A stretch of DNA of 64,000 nucleotides. Origin: Eledone cirrhosa. Lineage: Eukaryota. The stretch is taken from the NCBI GenBank assembly GCA_964016885.1, contig OZ024749.1:37696001-37760000 (forward strand), given 5' to 3'. The notes under the pieces are model-generated. The model saw nothing but the letters and a program-made list of their open reading frames with translations. It ran no database searches and was not told the DNA's origin. Positions 3,313 through 63,632 of the stretch are shown here, one piece after another. The translations under genes and the position numbers were made by a program. Position 1 is the first letter of the stretch, and the number at the start of each line of letters is the position of its first letter.

Positions 3313-3476
3313 TGTGAGTTCGATTCCTGGACCAGGCGATGCGTTATGTCCTTGAGCAAGACACTTTATTTCACGTTACTCCTTCTACCTGGAGTTGCGA
3401 CCGATAGATAGTATTAGCAATTGGAAAGACCAACGGAAACATTGTTCCCTCGGTCCGATTTGACGAAAGTCGATCC
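3308..3476 (+). mobile_element. tRNA-derived SINE family B, 5'-truncated
   Basis: B-box GAGTTCGATTCC and central CCTTGAGCAAGACACTTTATTTCAC; reverse copy at 7205-7420. Confidence 0.75.
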
Positions 3477-3477
3477 T

Positions 3478-3597
<120 letters not shown>

Positions 3598-3861: not shown

Positions 3862-3977
3862 TAACGAAGGAAGTGCGATAAGGTACCAAGTGGACCATAA
3901 CGCACCCGAGTACTCGATACTGAGATAGCTGTCGAAACGGCCGGAGCTCAGCCGTCGGGGTCCTGATTATTTTCCTA
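3862..3977 (-). mobile_element. F1 island, rearranged (antisense tail joined to sense HHR 3' half)
   Basis: Homologous to 15656-15847; contains GAAACGGC..GCCGTC. Confidence 0.7.
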
Positions 3978-13783: not shown

Positions 13784-13934
13784 AAGTATGACCCCGACGG
13801 CAGAGCTCAAGCCGTTTCGACGGCTATTTCTGCCGTCGGGGTCATACTTTCTCCTATTACCCACTCTACTACCCTAAGTATTGAGTACTCTGGTGCGTTA
13901 TGGTCCATCTGGTTCCTTACCACAACTCCTTCAT
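13781..13934 (+). mobile_element. F1 island with centre-deleted palindrome
   Basis: GAAAGTATGACCCCGACGGC / GCCGTCGGGGTCATACTTTC arms plus the F1 tail; TA on both sides. Confidence 0.8.
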
Positions 13935-13958
13935 TATATATATATATATATATATATA

Positions 13959-14086: not shown

Positions 14087-14745
14087 CGAGGTGTGTAGTT
14101 ACTAAAAACAAGGTTTAGGATGGTGGTTAAGACGGAACAAGAGGAGAAAGGAAGAAATGAGGTTCCTTCGTCAGCTGTATATGTTTATTATATACATACA
14201 TATATAAATATATATATGTGTGTGAATGTGTGTGTGTGTGTGTGTGCGTGAATATGTGTGTGTGTGTCTGAATGTGTGAGTGTGAGTTAGAAAGTGTGTC
14301 TGCGTGTGTATGTGAGAGTTCCTGTCTATACATCTGTATGGGTGCGTCTGTCTTAGAGTGTGTGTGTATATGTATGTATATATGTGTGTGTATATGTGTG
14401 TGTATATATATGTATGTGTGTTTGTGTGTGTGAGAGAGTGAGTATGTGTGTGTTGTGTGTGTGTGTGTGTGTTTGTGTGTGTGAGAGAGTGTGTATGTGT
14501 GTGTGTGTGTGGAGTAGTTTGAGGATGATAATAGCAACAAGTGAAGAGGTCATGTTTTCCTATGGTGGGGTGTGTATGTTGATTTCCGGTCGACCAGTTG
14601 CAAAAATATTTGTTATAGATAATTCTAGAAAAAGCAATTTTGATTTGGAAGCGACCCCAGAACTTATTGCTTCGGCTCAGAACATCTGAACATCGATACA
14701 CTTCAATTCCGTCATTTAGCGAAGACCCTACACTCTGTGTAGTAA

Positions 14746-15005
14746 TAATTGTTTTTACTTTTTGGCACAAGGCCAGCAATTAACCAGTGCATTACTGGTA
14801 CTTTATTTTATCGACCCCGTAAGGATGAAAAGCAAAGTTAACCTCGGCGGGGTTTTGAACTCAGAATGGCAAGGGTCGTAACTCTATGCGTCAAAGCATG
14901 GCGTCCGGCCCTCTACCGATATATGCCAATTAAATAAATTTGAAGATCCCGATAAGGGTGAAAGCAGCGATTCTTTGCTTAAACTTTAATCTGTTATTTT
15001 AATAA

Positions 15006-15044
<39 letters not shown>

Positions 15045-15413
15045 TAGATAGATAGATAGATAGATAAGATATATATACACACACAAACACAAACACACGC
15101 ACACACACACACATATATATATATATTTATTAAAATAACAGATTAAAGTTTTAGTCTTCAAATTTATTATTATTACTATATATATATATATATGATATAT
15201 GATATATATATATATGTCTATATATATATATATATACACATATATATGTATAATTATTTCTACTTTGGGCACAAGGCCAGCAAATACCCAGTGCATTACT
15301 GGTACTTTATTTTATCGACCCCGTAAGGATGAAAGGCAAAGTTAACCTCGGCGGGATATGAACGCAGATCGTAAAGGGATGTAACTGTGCTGCAAAGCAT
15401 GGCGTCCGACCCT
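14746..15413 (-). mobile_element. Two SINE A copies (14746-14930, 15252-15413)
   Basis: Reverse complement of the consensus; unrelated DNA lies between the copies. Confidence 0.8.
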
Positions 15414-15655
15414 ATAATGTATTATAATATATATAGAGGGAGATTTTTGCTGACAGTGAGTAGATTCATTGTAACATTAACGGTCTTATTTACGTATATA
15501 CATATATACATATATATACACACATACACATGTATGTATGACGGATATTCCTGGCTTCTATTTCTAATTCTTAATTTATTATATATATCATATTTGCAAC
15601 AACACAGCTCGCCCGCCATTTTTCATTCATATATGTATATATATATATATATATA

Positions 15656-15846
15656 GGAACCAGTAAGACCCCGACAGCTGAGCTCAAGCCGTTTCGACGG
15701 CTAATTCTGAGTCCAGAATTAGCCGTCGAAACGGCTTGAGCTCAGCTGTCGGGGTCTTACCGGTTCCTATTACCCACTCTACTACCTCAAGTATTGAGTA
15801 CTTTGGTGCGTTATGGTCCACCTGGTTCCTTACCACATTTCCTTCG

Positions 15847-15847
<1 letters not shown>
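15656..15847 (+). mobile_element. F1 island: ~115-bp palindrome containing an HHR 3' half, plus ~80-bp tail, in (TA)n
   Basis: GAAA-CGGC-ttgagctca-GCTGTC-ggggtc; inverted repeat 15653-15770; tail ends TTCCTTCGT-(TA)n. Confidence 0.85.
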
Positions 15848-15890
<43 letters not shown>

Positions 15891-15896
<6 letters not shown>

Positions 15897-16211: not shown

Positions 16212-17348
16212 TTGTTTCTACTTTAGGCACAAGGCCAGCAATTACCCAGTACATTACTGGTACTTTATTTTATCGACCCCGTAAGGATGAAAGGCAAAGT
16301 TATCCTCGGCGGGATTTGAACTCAGATCGTAAAGGGACGTAACTATGCTAGAAAGCATGGCGTCCAACCCTCTACCGATACTGCCAATTCACCGCCATAT
16401 ATATTGTTACATAGTTAGTTAGAGGGAGTTAGATAGAGAGAGAGAGAGTTGAATATACAAATAGCCAGTATTTTTTAGTAATTATTGGTGGCACCTGTGT
16501 GATCACACTATGTTTATACCGGAATAAGATAGTTAGCGTTAAAAGTGCGTATTAATGTATTAATGTATTAATGTATTAATGTATTAACACGGCCGTCTGT
16601 CAGTGGTTGTCTAATACGAAGAGTGAAATCCCACCGAGAAAATGTATATACACAATATTTAAAATATATATTGCTATACAATATGTATAATATAGAGTTT
16701 TTTTTCTCTACTTTTGACACAAGGCCAGCAATTATCCCAATGTATTACTGGTACTTTATTTTATCGACCCCGTAAGGATGAAAGGCAAAGTTAACCTCGG
16801 CGGGATTTGAACTCAGACTGTAAAGGGCCGTAACTCCATGCTGCAAAGCATAGTGTCTGACTCTCTACCGATACTGCCAATCCAATGGTTTCTGATTTAG
16901 GCATAAGTCTAACAATTTTGTGGGAGGGGAAATTCGATTAAATCAACCCCTGTTTGTGACAGGTACTTTATTTTATCGACCCCCATAAGGATAAAAGGCA
17001 AAGTTAACCTCGGCAGTATTTGAACTCAGAATGAAAAGGGCCGTAACTATATGTCGCAAAGCATATTGCATGATGATCCAGCACCACCATAATTGTTTCT
17101 GCTTTTGACACAAGGCTAGCATTTGGAAGGGAAGGGGACAGTCGATTAAATCGACTTATTACTTGCTTAGATTGGCAATATACGTAGATAGTCAGACGCC
17201 ATGCTTTGCAGCATAGAGTTACGCCCCTTTACGGTCTGAGTTCAAATCCCGCCTAGGTAAACTTTGCCTTTCATCCTTACGGGGTGGATAAAATAAAGTA
17301 CCAGTAAAGCACTGGGGTAATTGCTGGCCTTGTGCCGAAAGTAGAAAA
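16212..17348. mobile_element. SINE A cluster (16212-16397 -, 16703-16884 -, 16887-17065 -, 17091-17156 -, 17169-17348 +)
   Basis: Matches the consensus. Confidence 0.8.
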
Positions 17349-23249: not shown

Positions 23250-23280
<31 letters not shown>

Positions 23281-23419
23281 GGAACGTGTAGGACCCCGAC
23301 GGCTGAGCTCAAGCCGTTTCGACGGGGTCCTACTCGTTCCTATTACCCACTCTACTACCCTAAGTATTGAGTACTTTGGTGCGTTATGGTCCACCTGGTT
23401 CCTTACCACATTTCCTTCG

Positions 23420-23465
<46 letters not shown>

Positions 23466-23477
23466 CGAAGGAAATAT

Positions 23478-23518
<41 letters not shown>

Positions 23519-23709
23519 CGAAGGAAATGTGGTAAGGAACCAGGTGGACCATAACGCACCAAAGTACTCAATACTTGGGGTAGTAGAGTGGGTAATAGGA
23601 ACCAGTAAGACCCCGACAGCTGAGATCAAGCCGTTTCGACGGCTAATTCTGGACTAGAATTAGCCGTCGAGACGGCTTGAGCTCAGCTGTCGGGGTCTTA
23701 CTGGTTCCT
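23281..23709. mobile_element. F1 islands: 23281-23421 (+), 23464-23480 fragment (-), 23516-23709 (-)
   Basis: Match 15656-15847. Confidence 0.8.
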
Positions 23710-23811
23710 ATATATATATATATATATACACATATATATATGTGTGTATATATGTGCATATATATATATAGTTATATATGTATGTATATATCTGTTTATA
23801 TATATATATAC

Positions 23812-32744: not shown

Positions 32745-32745
<1 letters not shown>

Positions 32746-32866
32746 ACGAAGGAATTGTGGTAAGGAACCAGATGGACCATAACGCACCAGAGTACTCAAT
32801 ACTTAGGGTAGTAGAAATAGCCGTCGAAACGGCTTGAGCTCTGCCGTCGGGGTCATACTTTTTCCT
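32745..32866 (-). mobile_element. F1 island, rearranged
   Basis: Antisense tail joined to AGAAATAGCCGTCGAAAC. Confidence 0.75.
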
Positions 32867-32932
32867 ATATATATATATCTATGTGTATATATATATGATC
32901 AACCGACTTTCATCAACTGAATAATATATATA

Positions 32933-47110: not shown

Positions 47111-47244
47111 ATAACGAATATGACCTGTCTCTGACTATGAAATACAACCTGTGTATTAATAGCTATTATTTTGGTCATAGTATTTAGTCAATGATTTATG
47201 TATGTATGTATGGATTGATATATATATATATATATATATAAATA

Positions 47245-47435
47245 GGAACGAGTAGGACCCCGACGGCTGAGCTCAAGCCGTTTCGACGGCTAATTCTGGT
47301 CCAGAATTAGCCGTCGAAACGGCTTGAGCTCAGCCGTCGGTGTCCTATTCGTTCCTATTACCCACTCTACTACCCTAAGTATTGAGTACTTTGGTGCGTT
47401 ATGGTCCACCTGGTTCCTTACCACATTTCCTTCGT

Positions 47436-47468
<33 letters not shown>

Positions 47469-47621
47469 ATATATATATATAAGAGTGTGGTAATATACCA
47501 CGTGGACCATAAACGCACCAGAGTACTCCATACTTGGGGTAGTAGAGTGGGTAATATGACAAGTTTCCGTTCAGATCTTGCTGTCGAAACGGCCGGAGCT
47601 CAGTCGTCGGGGTCCTGAATC

Positions 47622-49527: not shown

Positions 49528-50645
49528 ATGGTGTTAGTAGTGGTGGTGTTAGTAGTGGTGTTAGTGGTGGTGGTGTTAGTAGTGGTGGTGTTAGTAGTAG
49601 TGGTGTTAGTAGTGGTGGTGTTAGTAGTGGTGGTGTTAATAGTAGTGGTGTTAGTAGTGGTGGTGTTAGTAGTGGTGGTGTTAATAGTGGTGTTAGTAGT
49701 GGTGGTGTTAGTAGTGGTGGTGTTAGTAGTGGTGGTGTTAGTAGTAGTGGTGTTAGTAGCGGTGGTGTTAATAGTGGTGTTAGTAGTGGTGGTGTTAGTA
49801 GTGGTGGTGTTAGTAGTGGTGGTGTTAGTAGTGGTGGTGTTAATAGTGGTGTTAGTAGTGGTGGTGTTAGTAGTGGTGGTGTTAGTAGTGGTGGTGTTAA
49901 TAGTGGTGTTAGTAGTGGTGGTGTTAGTAGTGGTGGTGTTAGTAGTGGTGGTGTTAGTAGTAGTGGTGTTAGTAGTGGTGGTGTTAGTAGTAGTGGTGTT
50001 AGTAGTGGTGGTGTTAGTAGGGGTGGTGTTAGTAGTGGTGGTGTTAGTAGTGGTGTTAGTAGTGGTGGTGTTAGTAGGGGTGGTGTTAGTAGTGGTGGTG
50101 TTAGTAGTGGTGGTGTTAATAGTAGTGGTGTTAGTAGTGGTGGTGTTAATAGTGGTGTTAGTAGTGGTGGTATTAGTAGTGGTGGTGTTAGTAGTGGTGG
50201 AGTGGTGGTGTTAGTAGTGGTGGTGTTAGTAGTGGTGGTGTTAGTAGTACTGGTGTTAGTAGTGGTGGTGTTAGTAGTGGTGGTGTTAGTAGTGGTGCTG
50301 TTAGTAGTGGTGGTGTTAGTAGTAGTGGTGTTAGTAGTAGTGGTGTTAGTAGTAGTGGTGTTAGTAGTGGTGGTGTTAGTAGTGGTGGTGTTAGTAGTAG
50401 TGGTGTAAGTAGTGGTGGTGTTAGTAGTGGTGGTGTTAGTAGTAGTGTTGTTAGTAGTAGTGGTGTTAGTAGTGGTTGTGTTAGTAGTGGTCGTGTTAGT
50501 AGTAGTGGTGTTAATAGTGGTGGTGTTAGTAGTAGTGGTGTTAGTAGTAGTGTTGGTGGTAGTAGTAGTGGTGTTAGTAGTAGTGGTAGTAGTAGTGGTA
50601 GTAGTAGTGGTAGTAGTACTGGTGTTAGTAGTAGTGGTAATAGTA
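49528..50645. repeat. 15/12-bp minisatellite (GGTGTTAGTAGTGGT)n
   Basis: Seen directly. Confidence 0.95.
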
Positions 50646-51885
50646 GTGGTGGATGTAGTTGTAGATGTGGTAGTGTTGGTAGTGGATGTGGTTGTAGATG
50701 TGGTAGTGTTGGTGGTGAATGTGGTTGTAGATGTGGTAGTGTTGGTGGTGGATGTGGTTGTAGATGTGGTAGTGTTGGTGGTGAATGTGGTTGTAGATGT
50801 GGTAGTGTTGGTGGTGGATGTTGTTGTAGATGTGATAGTGTTGGTGGTGGATGTGGTTGTAGATGTGGTAGTGTTGGTGGTGGATGTGGTTGTAGATGTG
50901 GTAGTGTTGGTGGTGGATGTGGTTGTAGATGTGGTAGTGTTGGTGGTGAATGTGGTTGTAGATGTGGTAGTGTTGGTGGTGGATGTTGTTGTAGATGTGG
51001 TAGTGTTGGTGGTGGATGTGGTTGTAGATGTGGTAGTGTTGGTGGTGGATGTGGTTGTAGATGTGGTAGTGTTGGTGGTGGATGTGGTTGTAGATGTGGT
51101 AGTGTTGGTGGTAGATGTGGTTGTAGATGTGGTAGTGTTGGTGGTGGATGTGGTTGTAGATGTGGTAGTGTTGGTGGTGGATGTTGTTGTAGATGTTGTA
51201 GTGTTGGTGGTGAATGTTGTTGTAGATGTGGTAGTGTTGGTGGTGGATGTGGTTGTAGATGTGGTAGTGTTGGTAGTGGATGTAGTTGTAGATGTGGTAG
51301 TGTTGGTGGTGGATGTGGTTGTAGATGTGGTAGTGTTGGTGGTGGATGTGGTTGTAGATGTGGTAGTGTTGGTGGCGGATGTGGTTGTAGATGTGGTAGT
51401 GTTGGTGGTAGATGTGGTTGTAGATGTGGTAGTGTTGGTGGTGGATGTGATTGTAGGTGTGGTAGTGTTGGTGGTGGATGTGGTTGTAGATGTGGTAGTG
51501 TTGGTGGTGGATGTAGTTGTAGATGTGGTAGTGTTGGTGGTGGATGTGGTTGTAGATGTGGTAGTGTTGGTGGTGGATGTAGTTGTAGATGTGGTAGTGT
51601 TGGTGGTGGATGTGATTGTAGATGTGGTAGTGTTGGTGGTGAATGTGGTTGTAGATGTGGTAGTGTTGGTGGTGGAACGTGGTTGTAGATGTGGTAGTGT
51701 TGGTGGTGAATGTCGTTGTAGATGTGGTAGTGTTGGTGGTGGATGTGGTTGTACATGTGGTAGTGTTGGTGGTGGATGTGATTGTAGATGTGGTAGTGTT
51801 GGTGGTGAATGTGGTTGTAGATGTGGTAGTGTTGGTGGTGGATGTGGTTGTAGATGTGGTAGTGTTGGTGGTGAATGTGATGGTG
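50646..51885. repeat. 33-bp minisatellite (GATGTGGTTGTAGATGTGGTAGTGTTGGTGGTG)n, ~37 units
   Basis: Seen directly. Confidence 0.95.
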
Positions 51886-52699: not shown

Positions 52700-53544
52700 T
52701 TTACTGCTGTTGTTGTGGTTACTATTGTTGTCAGTGTTACTGTTGTTGTATTTGCTGTTGTTGTGGTTGCTGTTGTTGTGGTTGCTGTTGTTGTGCTTGT
52801 TGATGTTGAATTTGTAGTTGCTGTTGTTGTATTTGCTGTTGTTGTGGTTGTTGTTGTTGTGCTTGTTGCTGTTGAATTTGTAGTTGCTATTGTTGTATTT
52901 GCTGTTGTTGTGGTTGCTGTTGTTGTGCTTGTTGATGTTGAATTTGTAGTTGATGTTGTTGTATTTGCTGTTGTTGTGGTTGCTGTTGTTGTGCTTGTTG
53001 ATGTTGAATTTGTAGTTGCTGTTGTTGTATTTGCTGTTGTTGTGGTTGCTGTTGAACTTTTTGTTGCTGTTGTTGTGGTTGTTGCTGTTGTCGGTGCTGA
53101 TGTTGAATTTGTAGTTGATGTTGTTGTGGTTGCTGTTGTTGTTGATGTTGTTGCAGTTGTGGTTGCTGTTGTTGTGATTGTTGTTGTTGTCGGTACTGCT
53201 GTTGTTGAACTTGTAGTTGCTATTGTTGTAATTGCTGCTGTTGTTGATGTTGTTGCTGCTGTTGCTATTGTTGTTGGTGTTATATTTGTTGTTGCAGCTG
53301 TAGTTGTTGTTGCTGTTGTATTTATAGTTGCCGTTGTTGTTGTTGTTGTTGTTGTTGTTGTTACTGCTGCGGTTTTATTTGCAGTTGCTGTTGCTGTTGC
53401 TGTTGTTGTTGTTGTTGTTAGTATTCTTGTTGATGTTATATTTGTTGTTGCTTTTGTATTTGTAGTTACTGTTGTTGGTGGCGGTGGTTTTATATTTGTA
53501 GTTGCTGTTGTTGTTGGTGGTGGTGTTGTTGCTATTGTTGTTGC

Positions 53545-53590
<46 letters not shown>

Positions 53591-53726
53591 ATTGTTGTTG
53601 TTGTTGTTGTTGTTGTTGTTTCTGCTGCTGCTGTTGTTGGTGTTGTTGATGTTGCATTTGTAGTTGCTGTTGTTGGTGTTGTAGTTGCAGTTGTTGTTGT
53701 TGGTTATTGTTGTAGAGGTTGTTGTT
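52700..53726. repeat. GTT-derived array including a 66-bp higher-order unit
   Basis: GTTGAATTTGTAGTTG recurs every 66 bp from ~52805 to 53010. Confidence 0.85.
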
Positions 53727-58618: not shown

Positions 58619-58814
58619 GAAAATGGTCAAGACCCTGACGGCAGAGCACAAGCAGTTTCGACGGCTATTTCTCGAGTCCAGAAATAGCCGTCGAAACGGC
58701 TTGAGCTCTGCCGTCGAAGTCTTGACCATTTTCCTATTACCCACTCTACCACCCTAAGTATTGAGTACTCTGGTGCTTTATGGTCAATCTGGTTCCTTAC
58801 CACACTTCCTTCGT
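58617..58814 (+). mobile_element. F1 island
   Basis: Palindrome plus tail. Confidence 0.8.
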
Positions 58815-58867
58815 TATATATATACATATATGTATATATAAATATATATACATATATACATATATGT

Positions 58868-59864: not shown

Positions 59865-59897
59865 CAGTATATATATACACACACACATATATATATA

Positions 59898-60103
59898 GGA
59901 ACGAGTAAGACCCCGACAGCTGAGCTCAAGCCGTTTCGACGGCTAATTCTGGAGTAAATTTTTTTTAGTCCAGAATTAGCCGTCGAAACGGCTTGAGCTC
60001 AGCCGTCGGGGTCTTACTCGTTCCTATTACCCACTCTACTACCCTAAGTATTGAGTACTTTAGTGCGTTATGGTCCACCTGGTTCCTTACCACATTTCCT
60101 TCG

Positions 60104-60104
<1 letters not shown>
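59898..60104 (+). mobile_element. F1 island with the longest centre
   Basis: Centre CTGGAGTAAATTTTTTTTAGTCCAG. Confidence 0.85.
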
Positions 60105-60139
<35 letters not shown>

Positions 60140-63151: not shown

Positions 63152-63532
63152 TAGATTTACATATACATAAACTAGGCAGAGCCATATATATATGTGTGTT
63201 TTTGGCAACCATTCGCGGTGTGGCTCAATGATGAATTAATTAATTAAATAATCAACAATCAGAGCAATATAGATTCGGAGAGGAAATACTGTATATATTT
63301 TATCAAATGATTCTATGGAGTTACTTTCTCATATATATATATATATATACGATATTAATAAATGGAAACTATATTTATAAAACCATATTTATTTCATTAT
63401 ACATATTTCAGGGATACCAAATTAAATTATGGTATGCCTTTATCAGACAAAATACAATATATAACAGTTTTACAAATAAGCTTTGACGTACCCTATTAAA
63501 ATGCAACCATTATTTTTGGAAGCCATCTGGAA

Positions 63533-63611
63533 GCCAGGTGGACCATAACGCACTTTGGTGAGTACTTTCGTGCATTATGGTCCACCTGGTTCCTTACCAC
63601 ATTTCCTTCGT
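63533..63611 (+). mobile_element. F1 tail fragment with a short inversion
   Basis: CCAGGTGGACCATAACGCAC / GTGCATTATGGTCCACCTGG. Confidence 0.7.
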
Positions 63612-63632
63612 TATATATATATTTATATATAA

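What the first reader, a model, noticed from the sequence alone, without database searches (positions are those of the whole stretch)
15653..15847. F1: palindromic half-hammerhead whose inversion appears to be remade at each insertion
Seen: about 12 F1 pieces. None has CTGANGA. Full copies are an inverted repeat centred ~20-25 nt upstream of GAAACGGC-ttgagctca-GCCGTC, plus a tail. Subfamily variants occur in both arms of the same copy (15.7k AAGACC/GGTCTT; 58.6k GGAAAATGGTCAAGAC/GTCTTGACCATTTTCC; 13.8k GAAAGTATGACCCC/GGGGTCATACTTTC). The centre differs in every copy (CTGAGTCCAG, CTGGTCCAG, CTAGTCCAG, CTCGAGTCCAG, and a longer T-rich centre). The outer arm almost always stops at the same CCTA/TA point. 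Inference: cDNA snap-back or double priming from both TA target ends, joined at helix II, systematically removes the 5' catalytic strand and leaves hairpin DNA able to give dsRNA.
Basis: partly seen in the sequence, partly recalled or inferred. Interest (0 to 1): 0.8.

Follow-up and report, generated by a model that had tools for sequence, protein, structure and literature searches.

The report
Double-primed stubs of a Penelope retrotransposon
The hairpin is two very short, head-to-head copies of the end of a Penelope-type retrotransposon sitting in a TA repeat; it was likely made by copying the element's RNA from both broken DNA ends at once, a known kind of insertion that is here so numerous that it can test how such inversions form.

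Summary
The palindrome is real and is remade at each insertion. It is the 3' stub of a Penelope-like retrotransposon (PLE) with Hydra-clade motifs. Full-length 3.54-kb tandem units with an intact 719-aa ORF lie elsewhere in the genome. The master has a complete hammerhead fold, but its core reads UUGANAA (U3-A8 swap), so a CTGANGA search misses it (2,706 matches). 13,928 exact short palindromic centres exist. In 944 kb of unselected DNA, 60 of 63 two-armed copies pair one tail-bearing end with one tail-less end, and the tail-less arm reached further 5' in 38 of 60. In long copies it did so by over 100 nt in 11 of 22. Junctions show no excess microhomology. This argues against snap-back and favours two cDNAs primed from both target ends at two fixed RNA sites, then end-joined. 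Inverted truncated copies, one-sided tails, TA targeting and U3-A8 are all published PLE features. In my literature searches I found neither the strict one-of-each rule nor the truncation hotspot in ribozyme loop II; the hotspot's cause is unknown. dsRNA and ribozyme activity are untested.

The parts
15653..15709 (-). Tail-less arm: inverted 5'-truncated copy of the element's 3' end (master positions 3393-3449)
   Evidence: 100% identical to the natural tandem unit in L091 over 57 nt
15710..15848 (+). Tail-bearing arm: 5'-truncated copy (master 3389-3527)
   Evidence: 99.3% identical to the L091 unit
15709..15710 (.). Head-to-head junction, blunt, no inserted base; both arms end in the 3' side of ribozyme loop II
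15720..15727 (+). 3' strand of hammerhead helix II (its partner lies only in longer copies)
   Evidence: fold of the master; pair counts on 27 long arms
15728..15755 (+). 3' half of the hammerhead: GAAA core, helix III with palindromic loop, GUC predicted cleavage triplet (15748-15750), 3' strand of helix I
   Evidence: cleavage itself untested
15768..15770 (+). TAT at which tail-less arms end; inferred first reverse-transcription start site
   Evidence: 73 of 92 tail-less ends at master 3449; the same end in all 23 long insertions inspected; 26,051 exact matches of this end next to TATA
15771..15848 (+). Tail (78 nt) between the two end sites; in tandem masters it runs on into the next unit's 5' leader
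   Evidence: 32,235 exact matches of the tail end next to TATA
15634..15652 (.). Left (TA)n target remnant
   Evidence: sequence; a target-site duplication cannot be read in (TA)n
15849..15892 (.). Right (TA)n target remnant
   Evidence: sequence
3863..3962 (-). Sister insertion, old subfamily; tail arm stops inside the tail (3461), so the arms do not overlap
13785..13935 (+). Sister insertion; tail arm starts 3421, tail-less arm 3393
23278..23421 (+). Sister insertion with a shortened centre
23517..23711 (-). Sister insertion, same subfamily as the focal copy
32745..32868 (-). Sister insertion; tail arm stops at 3457, tail-less arm 3394-3449, no overlap (twin-priming-like)
47241..47436 (+). 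Sister insertion
47486..47614 (-). Sister insertion, old subfamily; tail arm stops at 3444
58629..58815 (+). Sister insertion, diverged subfamily
59895..60105 (+). Sister insertion with a longer T-rich centre
63529..63612 (+). Sister insertion made of two tail pieces, the only such case of the 11 in the window

Best explanation
The hairpin is a pair of 5'-truncated, head-to-head copies of the 3' end of a Penelope-like retrotransposon with Hydra-clade motifs, likely made when both ends of a break in a (TA)n tract primed reverse transcription at two fixed sites on the element's RNA and the two short cDNAs were joined. Shown: the parent element, two fixed 3' ends 78 nt apart, one of each per insertion, varied junctions, (TA)n flanks, and a truncation hotspot in loop II. 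Inferred: the GIY-YIG domain cuts both strands; one reverse transcriptase starts at the TAT ending the tail and the other at the TAT 78 nt upstream, probably on the same RNA; both usually stop 3-13 nt upstream of helix II's 3' strand, at a bound protein or at the RNA's 5' end; host end joining fuses the ends blunt or with a small insertion. The half-ribozyme and the hairpin are by-products, and ribozyme cleavage is probably not needed for insertion.
For: Parent: longer copies continue into a 3,543-bp tandem unit with an uninterrupted 719-aa ORF bearing YRDD, DKT, CxCx5C, VIY..AYIG, CxxC and CxH; 1,288 homologs at E<=0.001, one from a jellyfish; atlas neighbours carry GIY-YIG and RVT_1 on some members. 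One end of each kind: 60 of 63 unselected pairs (p 9e-15 against 50:50), 32 of 34 in end-anchored loci, 22 of 23 long insertions. Tail-less arm further 5': 38 vs 19 of 60 unselected, by >=10 nt 24 vs 2; 12 vs 9 of 22 long insertions, 11 by >100 nt. The tail-less end stays at one TAT although long arms pass many others (38 TAT in the last kilobase), so it behaves as a start, not a stop. Microhomology >=2 nt in 2 of 37 junctions (2 of 18 without insertion) against about 10% in simulated blunt joins; 19 of 37 have insertions. Same-RNA hints: both arms pass the hotspot together in 25 of 66 insertions against 7.5-16% expected if independent (p 4e-12 to 1e-5); tail arms end within 3410-3449 in 20 of 92 pairs, tail-less arms in 1. 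In vitro precedent: an anole PLE protein cuts and extends both strands and starts at two RNA sites that bound the tail, and ribozyme mutants still insert (PMC11167929).
Against: No RNA or biochemical data for this family. Arm ends in the short class are positively correlated in unselected copies (rho 0.56, n 37; 0.48, n 51) though not in the pattern-selected set (0.05, n 95) or the long class (0.07, n 22). A shared limit explains this, but so would a hairpin revised later at its centre. Tail-less arms under about 20 nt escape my pairing, which inflates the asymmetry: 22 hits stayed unpaired, and by eye about 11 of the 18 tail-bearing ones have a short or diverged partner and about 7 have none. 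6 of 106 copies have discordant arms; 3 differ at a single CpG-type site, 3 otherwise, hinting that two RNAs are sometimes used. Deletions after insertion can reshape palindromes (recalled). Pfam and PDB gave no match for the ORF, so the RT and nuclease calls rest on motifs, atlas neighbours and a by-eye match to published Hydra-1_Obim. The tail is 78 nt, against 30-40 in print.
Confidence: 0.78

Rival explanations
1. Snap-back or self-priming: one cDNA (or an antisense template, as proposed for rotifer PLEs) folds back and copies itself; later centre deletions create the varied junctions.
For: Arms share subfamily variants (100 of 106); short-class arm ends correlate; the tail-less end is the first TAT downstream of the hotspot; a few near-symmetric long copies exist (L078, L083, L342); self-priming was proposed in PMC3846280.
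Against: The tail-less arm holds up to about 2.4 kb that the tail arm lacks, or more where it runs through a tandem unit; in 10 of 92 pairs the tail arm starts inside the tail and never reached the sequence supposedly copied; no microhomology excess; long arms pass dozens of TAT sites yet end at the same one.
Confidence: 0.08
2. Double priming, but with short palindromic copies as the main templates: their hairpin transcripts are cut at the centre, and the sense half is mobilised in trans as a SINE-like RNA, which perpetuates the hotspot.
For: Arms pass or fail the hotspot together; short copies outnumber long ones about 20 to 1 (4 of 92); one subfamily supplies 22 of 92 unselected copies and none of them is long.
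Against: Six subfamilies seen among short copies, the old one included, also have long arms with the same diagnostic bases (none was seen for a minor seventh); no junction is tied to one subfamily; no RNA data.
Confidence: 0.1
3. A MITE or other DNA transposon with terminal inverted repeats.
For: Short, high-copy, inverted repeat, TA target.
Against: Centres differ, arms are 5'-truncated pieces of an RT-encoding element, lengths run from tens of bases to kilobases, and one end carries an unpaired tail.
Confidence: 0.01
4. Assembly artefact (fold-back long reads).
For: Perfect palindromes are a known long-read artefact (recalled).
Against: Fixed ends, TA flanks, mismatches between arms and subfamily structure. 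Contigs of public runs X1 and X5 show opposite-strand joints, and X1 and X4 the same strong 3' excess; X1 may be the assembly's own sample and depth is no copy number.
Confidence: 0.01

Closest known systems
Hydra clade of endonuclease-bearing Penelope-like elements, e.g. Hydra-1_Obim, Penelope-13_HM (PMC8557442)
   Same: Single RT-GIY-YIG ORF, DKT, CxCx5C linker, CxxC and CxH, no CCHH, (TA)n target, 3' hammerhead; Penelope-13_HM is annotated with a 5'-truncated inverted copy. The start of the Hydra-1_Obim protein seen in the supplement matches motif by motif, by eye.
   Different: Unit 3.54 kb with a long 3' UTR (Hydra members are generally <3 kb); RWR for RWK; ribozyme core UUGANAA with a 5-bp helix III and a loop II of about 35 nt, while all listed Hydra ribozymes read CUGANGA. 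It is not Hydra-1_Obim, whose ribozyme differs.
Poseidon of Anolis carolinensis (PMC11167929)
   Same: Two fixed ends bounding a tail; AT-rich target; both strands cut and extended in vitro; ribozyme dispensable in vitro.
   Different: Other clade; the parts I read (1-2 of 4) do not link the two start sites to the two arms of inverted insertions.
Adineta vaga Penelope elements (PMC3846280)
   Same: Head-to-head inverted pLTR, tail at one end, palindromes at the junction.
   Different: Few copies, explained by self-priming on an antisense template, which the arm asymmetry here argues against.
U3-A8 hammerheads of Schistosoma Cercyon PLEs (PMC4209133)
   Same: The same core covariation, type I topology, palindromic loop III, mostly single motifs from truncated copies.
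   Different: Those are minimal ribozymes lacking helix III; this one has a stable helix III and a long helix II.
LINE-1 twin priming (recalled, not looked up)
   Same: Two target ends prime on the RNA and give a 5' inversion; copies whose tail arm stops at or before the second site look just like it.
   Different: In L1 the second site is variable and the segments do not overlap; here it is fixed and the arms usually overlap, giving palindromes.
Non-LTR retrozymes (10.64898/2026.07.22.740005; abstract, introduction and part of the methods read)
   Same: Non-coding, PLE-derived, hammerhead-related.
   Different: Retrozymes are tandem direct repeats with whole ribozymes; these are inverted stubs with half of one.

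Membership tests
EN+ Penelope-like element | Single ORF with RT and C-terminal GIY-YIG | tested here: met
   719-aa ORF, YRDD at 348, VIY at 591, AYIG at 605; atlas neighbours; Pfam and PDB blank
EN+ Penelope-like element | Tandem or partial-tandem units (pLTR) | tested here: met
   four full units plus a partial one, period about 3,543, in L091-L093; partial tandems in L094-L096
EN+ Penelope-like element | Inverted 5'-truncated copy at the 5' end | tested here: met
   63 pairs against 22 unpaired hits in 944 kb
EN+ Penelope-like element | Tail at one end only (30-40 bp in print) | tested here: met
   one-sided in 60 of 63; length 78 nt, longer than published
EN+ Penelope-like element | Hammerhead motif in the terminal repeat | tested here: met
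   fold, alignment and pair counts
Hydra clade | DKT, CxCx5C, CxxC and CxH, no CCHH | tested here: met
   against the definition; absence of CCHH read by eye from the sequence
Hydra clade | N-terminal RWK | tested here: inconclusive
   RWR here; RWK in 6 of 9 aligned homologs, RWR in the other 3
Hydra clade | (TA)n insertion | tested here: met
   TA run at both ends in 78 of 92 (32 of the 92 come from loci picked by a TATA-ended pattern)
Hydra clade | Canonical CUGANGA hammerhead | tested here: not met
   U3-A8 in 73 of 92 long arms collected, C3-G8 in 7 (sample shaped by the search patterns); a described trait of the clade rather than its basis
Hydra clade | Placement in the RT phylogeny with reference Hydra sequences | not tested
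   reference sequences were seen only in a paper supplement; no tree built
Type I hammerhead ribozyme | Core 3-8 pair, U4 G5 A6, free N7, A9, G10.1-C11.1, G12 A13 A14, A15.1-U16.1, three helices | tested here: met
   N7 takes all four bases; 89% of cells paired, two-sided changes at 3 helix II pairs, slid controls 21-55%. Related rows, so covariation support is modest; Rfam found nothing in the window, which holds only halves
Type I hammerhead ribozyme | Self-cleavage after GUC | not testable with these tools
   no RNA data; no pile-up of 5' ends at the site among 92 pairs
MITE | Uniform length and fixed interior between terminal inverted repeats | tested here: not met
   75 centres in 95 copies; arms up to kilobases
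Non-LTR retrozyme | Tandem short units, each with a whole hammerhead | tested here: not met
   short copies are inverted and lack the 5' strand

The most novel reading that the evidence does not exclude
Programmed twin priming is the normal insertion route of these elements: two reverse transcriptases on one RNA start at two fixed sites, one on each end of the break, so the tail and the inverted copy are two marks of one reaction. A block or processed RNA end in ribozyme loop II then turns most events into 200-bp hairpins, seeding tens of thousands of potential dsRNA substrates without any dedicated palindromic element.
Probability: 0.45. Interest if true: 0.62.

Novelty: new member of a known kind. 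Interest (0 to 1): 0.42.

Why it matters
How Penelope-like elements form their inverted structures is named as open in PMC8557442. One paper proposed self-priming (PMC3846280); another showed two start sites and two-strand extension in vitro (PMC11167929). This family offers tens of thousands of natural replicates, and the sample read here discriminates between the models: one end of each kind, either arm longer, no microhomology excess. It also shows why motif searches for CUGANGA undercount PLE ribozymes, and that a retroelement can mimic a MITE. Whether the hairpins matter to the host (editing, small RNAs) is unknown. The architecture itself is not new.

Tried and rejected
Rfam at gathering thresholds: 0 matches in the window. 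Search for a CTGANGA master within 35 nt of the GAAA half: 41 matches; those read (most of the 30 loci; the start of the output was cut) were chance motifs at junctions or in flanks, not masters. Pfam on the ORF and on 10 aligned proteins, and PDB with their profile: nothing relevant. Expression and editing: no RNA holder listed; laying contigs gave no information on RNA. Hotspot in the oldest subfamily: only 12 arms and 1 centre were usable, inconclusive. A 100-kb block of C5 held no copy, so density is uneven and I give no extrapolated copy number. Rows dropped: L334 (secondary inverted duplication of flanks) and one unfetched pair of the 25 long pairs; L099 (two tail-less ends) from the 22-row asymmetry count; junctions of old subfamilies from the 37-row set; L069 and L070 show one insertion twice in the 121-row set. 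Seven planned single-core regions were not obtained, so partners of one-long-arm copies were seen only where loci already covered them. Earlier findings of the scan: three look-ups, nothing returned. Literature: 8 searches found no paper stating the one-of-each rule, a loop II hotspot or this family; subscription papers and Repbase were not searched, so the family may already be catalogued.

Full report
Observation. The window is G000:C9:37696001-37760000 of a 3.0-Gb animal genome; its repeats look cephalopod-like to me, which is recall and not a call. At 15653-15848 lie two inverted arms between (TA)n tracts; they fold into a 59-bp stem with one mismatch, z -20.6. The window has 11 such two-armed insertions. 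Genome-wide, a pattern requiring both exact inner flanks and a centre of at most 30 nt matches 13,928 places, control 0. The two outer ends next to TATA match 32,235 (tail end) and 26,051 (tail-less end) times; the patterns differ in stringency and all counts are lower bounds.

Parent element. Among the 30 best genomic matches, five continued upstream into a longer shared sequence. A 22-nt pattern from it matches 2,706 places, among them an array of period about 3,543 bp. That array holds four full units, a partial unit and an inverted partial arm; full units carry an uninterrupted ORF of 719 aa from the first Met. The ORF has RWR, DKT, YRDD, CxCx5C, VIY..AYIG, CxxC and CxH, which match the definition of the Hydra clade in PMC8557442 (Hydra section read whole, other passages and two supplement tables). 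It has 1,288 homologs, mostly about 40% identical and unnamed, one from a jellyfish. Pfam and PDB gave nothing; the nearest atlas clusters are eukaryotic, and some further ones carry GIY-YIG or RVT_1 on part of their members. I built no tree, so clade membership rests on motifs.

Ribozyme. The master folds as a type I hammerhead: helix I, UUGAGAA, a bulged helix II with a loop of about 35 nt, GAAA, a 5-bp helix III with a palindromic loop, and GUC (the fold's z-score is only -0.25, so the case rests on motif and pairing). In 92 long arms position 7 takes all four bases; positions 3/8 read U-A 73, C-A 9, C-G 7, U-G 3, a sample shaped by my patterns. On 27 aligned arms 89% of cells pair, with two-sided changes at three helix II pairs. 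U3-A8 is published for Schistosoma PLEs (PMC4209133, passages). One subfamily has a mismatched C3-A8 core in 7 long arms, yet supplies 22 of 92 unselected copies. With the lack of 5' ends piled at the cleavage site, this suggests cleavage is not needed, as shown in vitro for an anole PLE (PMC11167929, parts 1-2 of 4 read).

Anatomy of insertions. Numbering follows one natural unit. Copies end at 3449 or 3527, each at a TAT that merges with the (TA)n target; the 78 nt between are the tail. Two-armed insertions have one end of each kind: 146 of 152 in a mixed, partly selected set, 60 of 63 in 944 kb of unselected blocks, 32 of 34 in end-anchored loci, and 22 of 23 long insertions. 5' ends pile up at 3385-3400: 31 of 60 tail arms and 43 of 60 tail-less arms; only 4 of 92 pairs keep the 5' core in either arm. 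Contigs of run X1 show a tenfold fall in summed depth across the same boundary, weak support only. Centres are varied (75 of 95; 34 of 37), recurrent ones span subfamilies, and the arms agree in subfamily in 100 of 106 copies against 21.8 shuffled. So the inversion is made anew each time.

Snap-back or double priming. Snap-back from the tail-bearing cDNA requires the tail arm to reach at least as far 5' as the other and needs fold-back microhomology. Instead the tail-less arm reaches further in 38 of 60 unselected pairs (by 10 nt or more: 24 against 2) and in 12 of 22 long ones, 11 by over 100 nt. In 10 of 92 pairs the tail arm begins inside the tail. Microhomology of 2 nt or more occurs in 2 of 37 junctions, no more than in simulated blunt joins; 19 have insertions. 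Long tail-less arms pass many TAT sites yet end at the same one. Two separately primed cDNAs fit all this, and the anole protein extends both strands from two RNA sites that bound the tail. The self-priming model of PMC3846280 (passages) fits poorly.

One RNA or two. If one arm passes the hotspot, the other does in 25 of 66 insertions, against 7.5-16% expected. Tail arms stop in 3410-3449 in 20 of 92 pairs, tail-less arms in 1, as if the tail-side enzyme met the other. Both hint at a shared template.

Results against my reading. Very short tail-less arms are missed by my pairing; 22 hits stayed unpaired, about 7 of the 18 tail-bearing ones with no visible partner. Short-class ends correlate (rho 0.56 and 0.48), unlike the selected set (0.05), which a later revision of hairpin centres could also give. 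Three copies have arms of different subfamilies beyond a single CpG-type change. The cause of the hotspot is not resolved: a protein roadblock, an RNA 5' end, or short copies acting as templates all fit.

Known and new. Inverted truncated copies, one-sided tails, (TA)n targeting and U3-A8 cores are published. Eight searches did not find the strict pairing of end types, the loop II hotspot or this family; the published octopus Hydra-1_Obim has another ribozyme. Other papers were seen only as listings, except 10.64898/2026.07.22.740005 (first of five parts; its supplements are closed) and PMC11703226 (three passages, not relevant). dsRNA formation and editing remain untested.

Verdict. A new Hydra-type Penelope family whose insertions are mostly double-primed stubs. 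The kind is known; the copy number makes it a good natural test of the insertion mechanism. Interest 0.42.

Noticed in passing
window 32609 and 60411 (+), 35187 (-): Three whole, canonical CUGANGA type I hammerhead-like motifs of at least two other families; probably other PLE or retrozyme repeats.
   Followed up: no
window about 14745-14930, 15255-15420, 16215-16400: Three copies of another dispersed repeat of about 190 nt, often beside TA runs; also seen in L014 and L025. SINE-like by appearance.
   Followed up: no
window 49529-51879 and 52705-53726: G/T-rich tandem arrays with periods 15, 33 and 6, giving long open frames of low complexity; possibly mucin-like exons on the minus strand.
   Followed up: no
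L092:9170 to L093:2741: At the inversion junction of the tandem array a 55-bp piece of the ORF is repeated about 64 times in tandem, as if a polymerase slipped repeatedly during joining.
   Followed up: no
L321, L322, L327-L330, L333: The ribozyme's 3-8 pair occurs as U-A, C-A and C-G in related subfamilies, a natural series for cleavage assays.
   Followed up: partly
G000:C2:338328830-338461864 and C2:384581153-385035075: Identical long arms recur at about 44-kb spacing and as a mirrored pair, suggesting segmental tandem and inverted duplications.
   Followed up: no
L334: A long arm is duplicated in inverted form together with its flanks, a secondary rearrangement rather than an insertion product.
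   Followed up: partly
L128-L137 (C5:60.0-60.1 Mb): 100 kb without any copy, against 53 pairs in 464 kb of C9: density is very uneven.
   Followed up: no
L015:1-630: A long inverted copy in which private changes appear in both arms over hundreds of bases.
   Followed up: no
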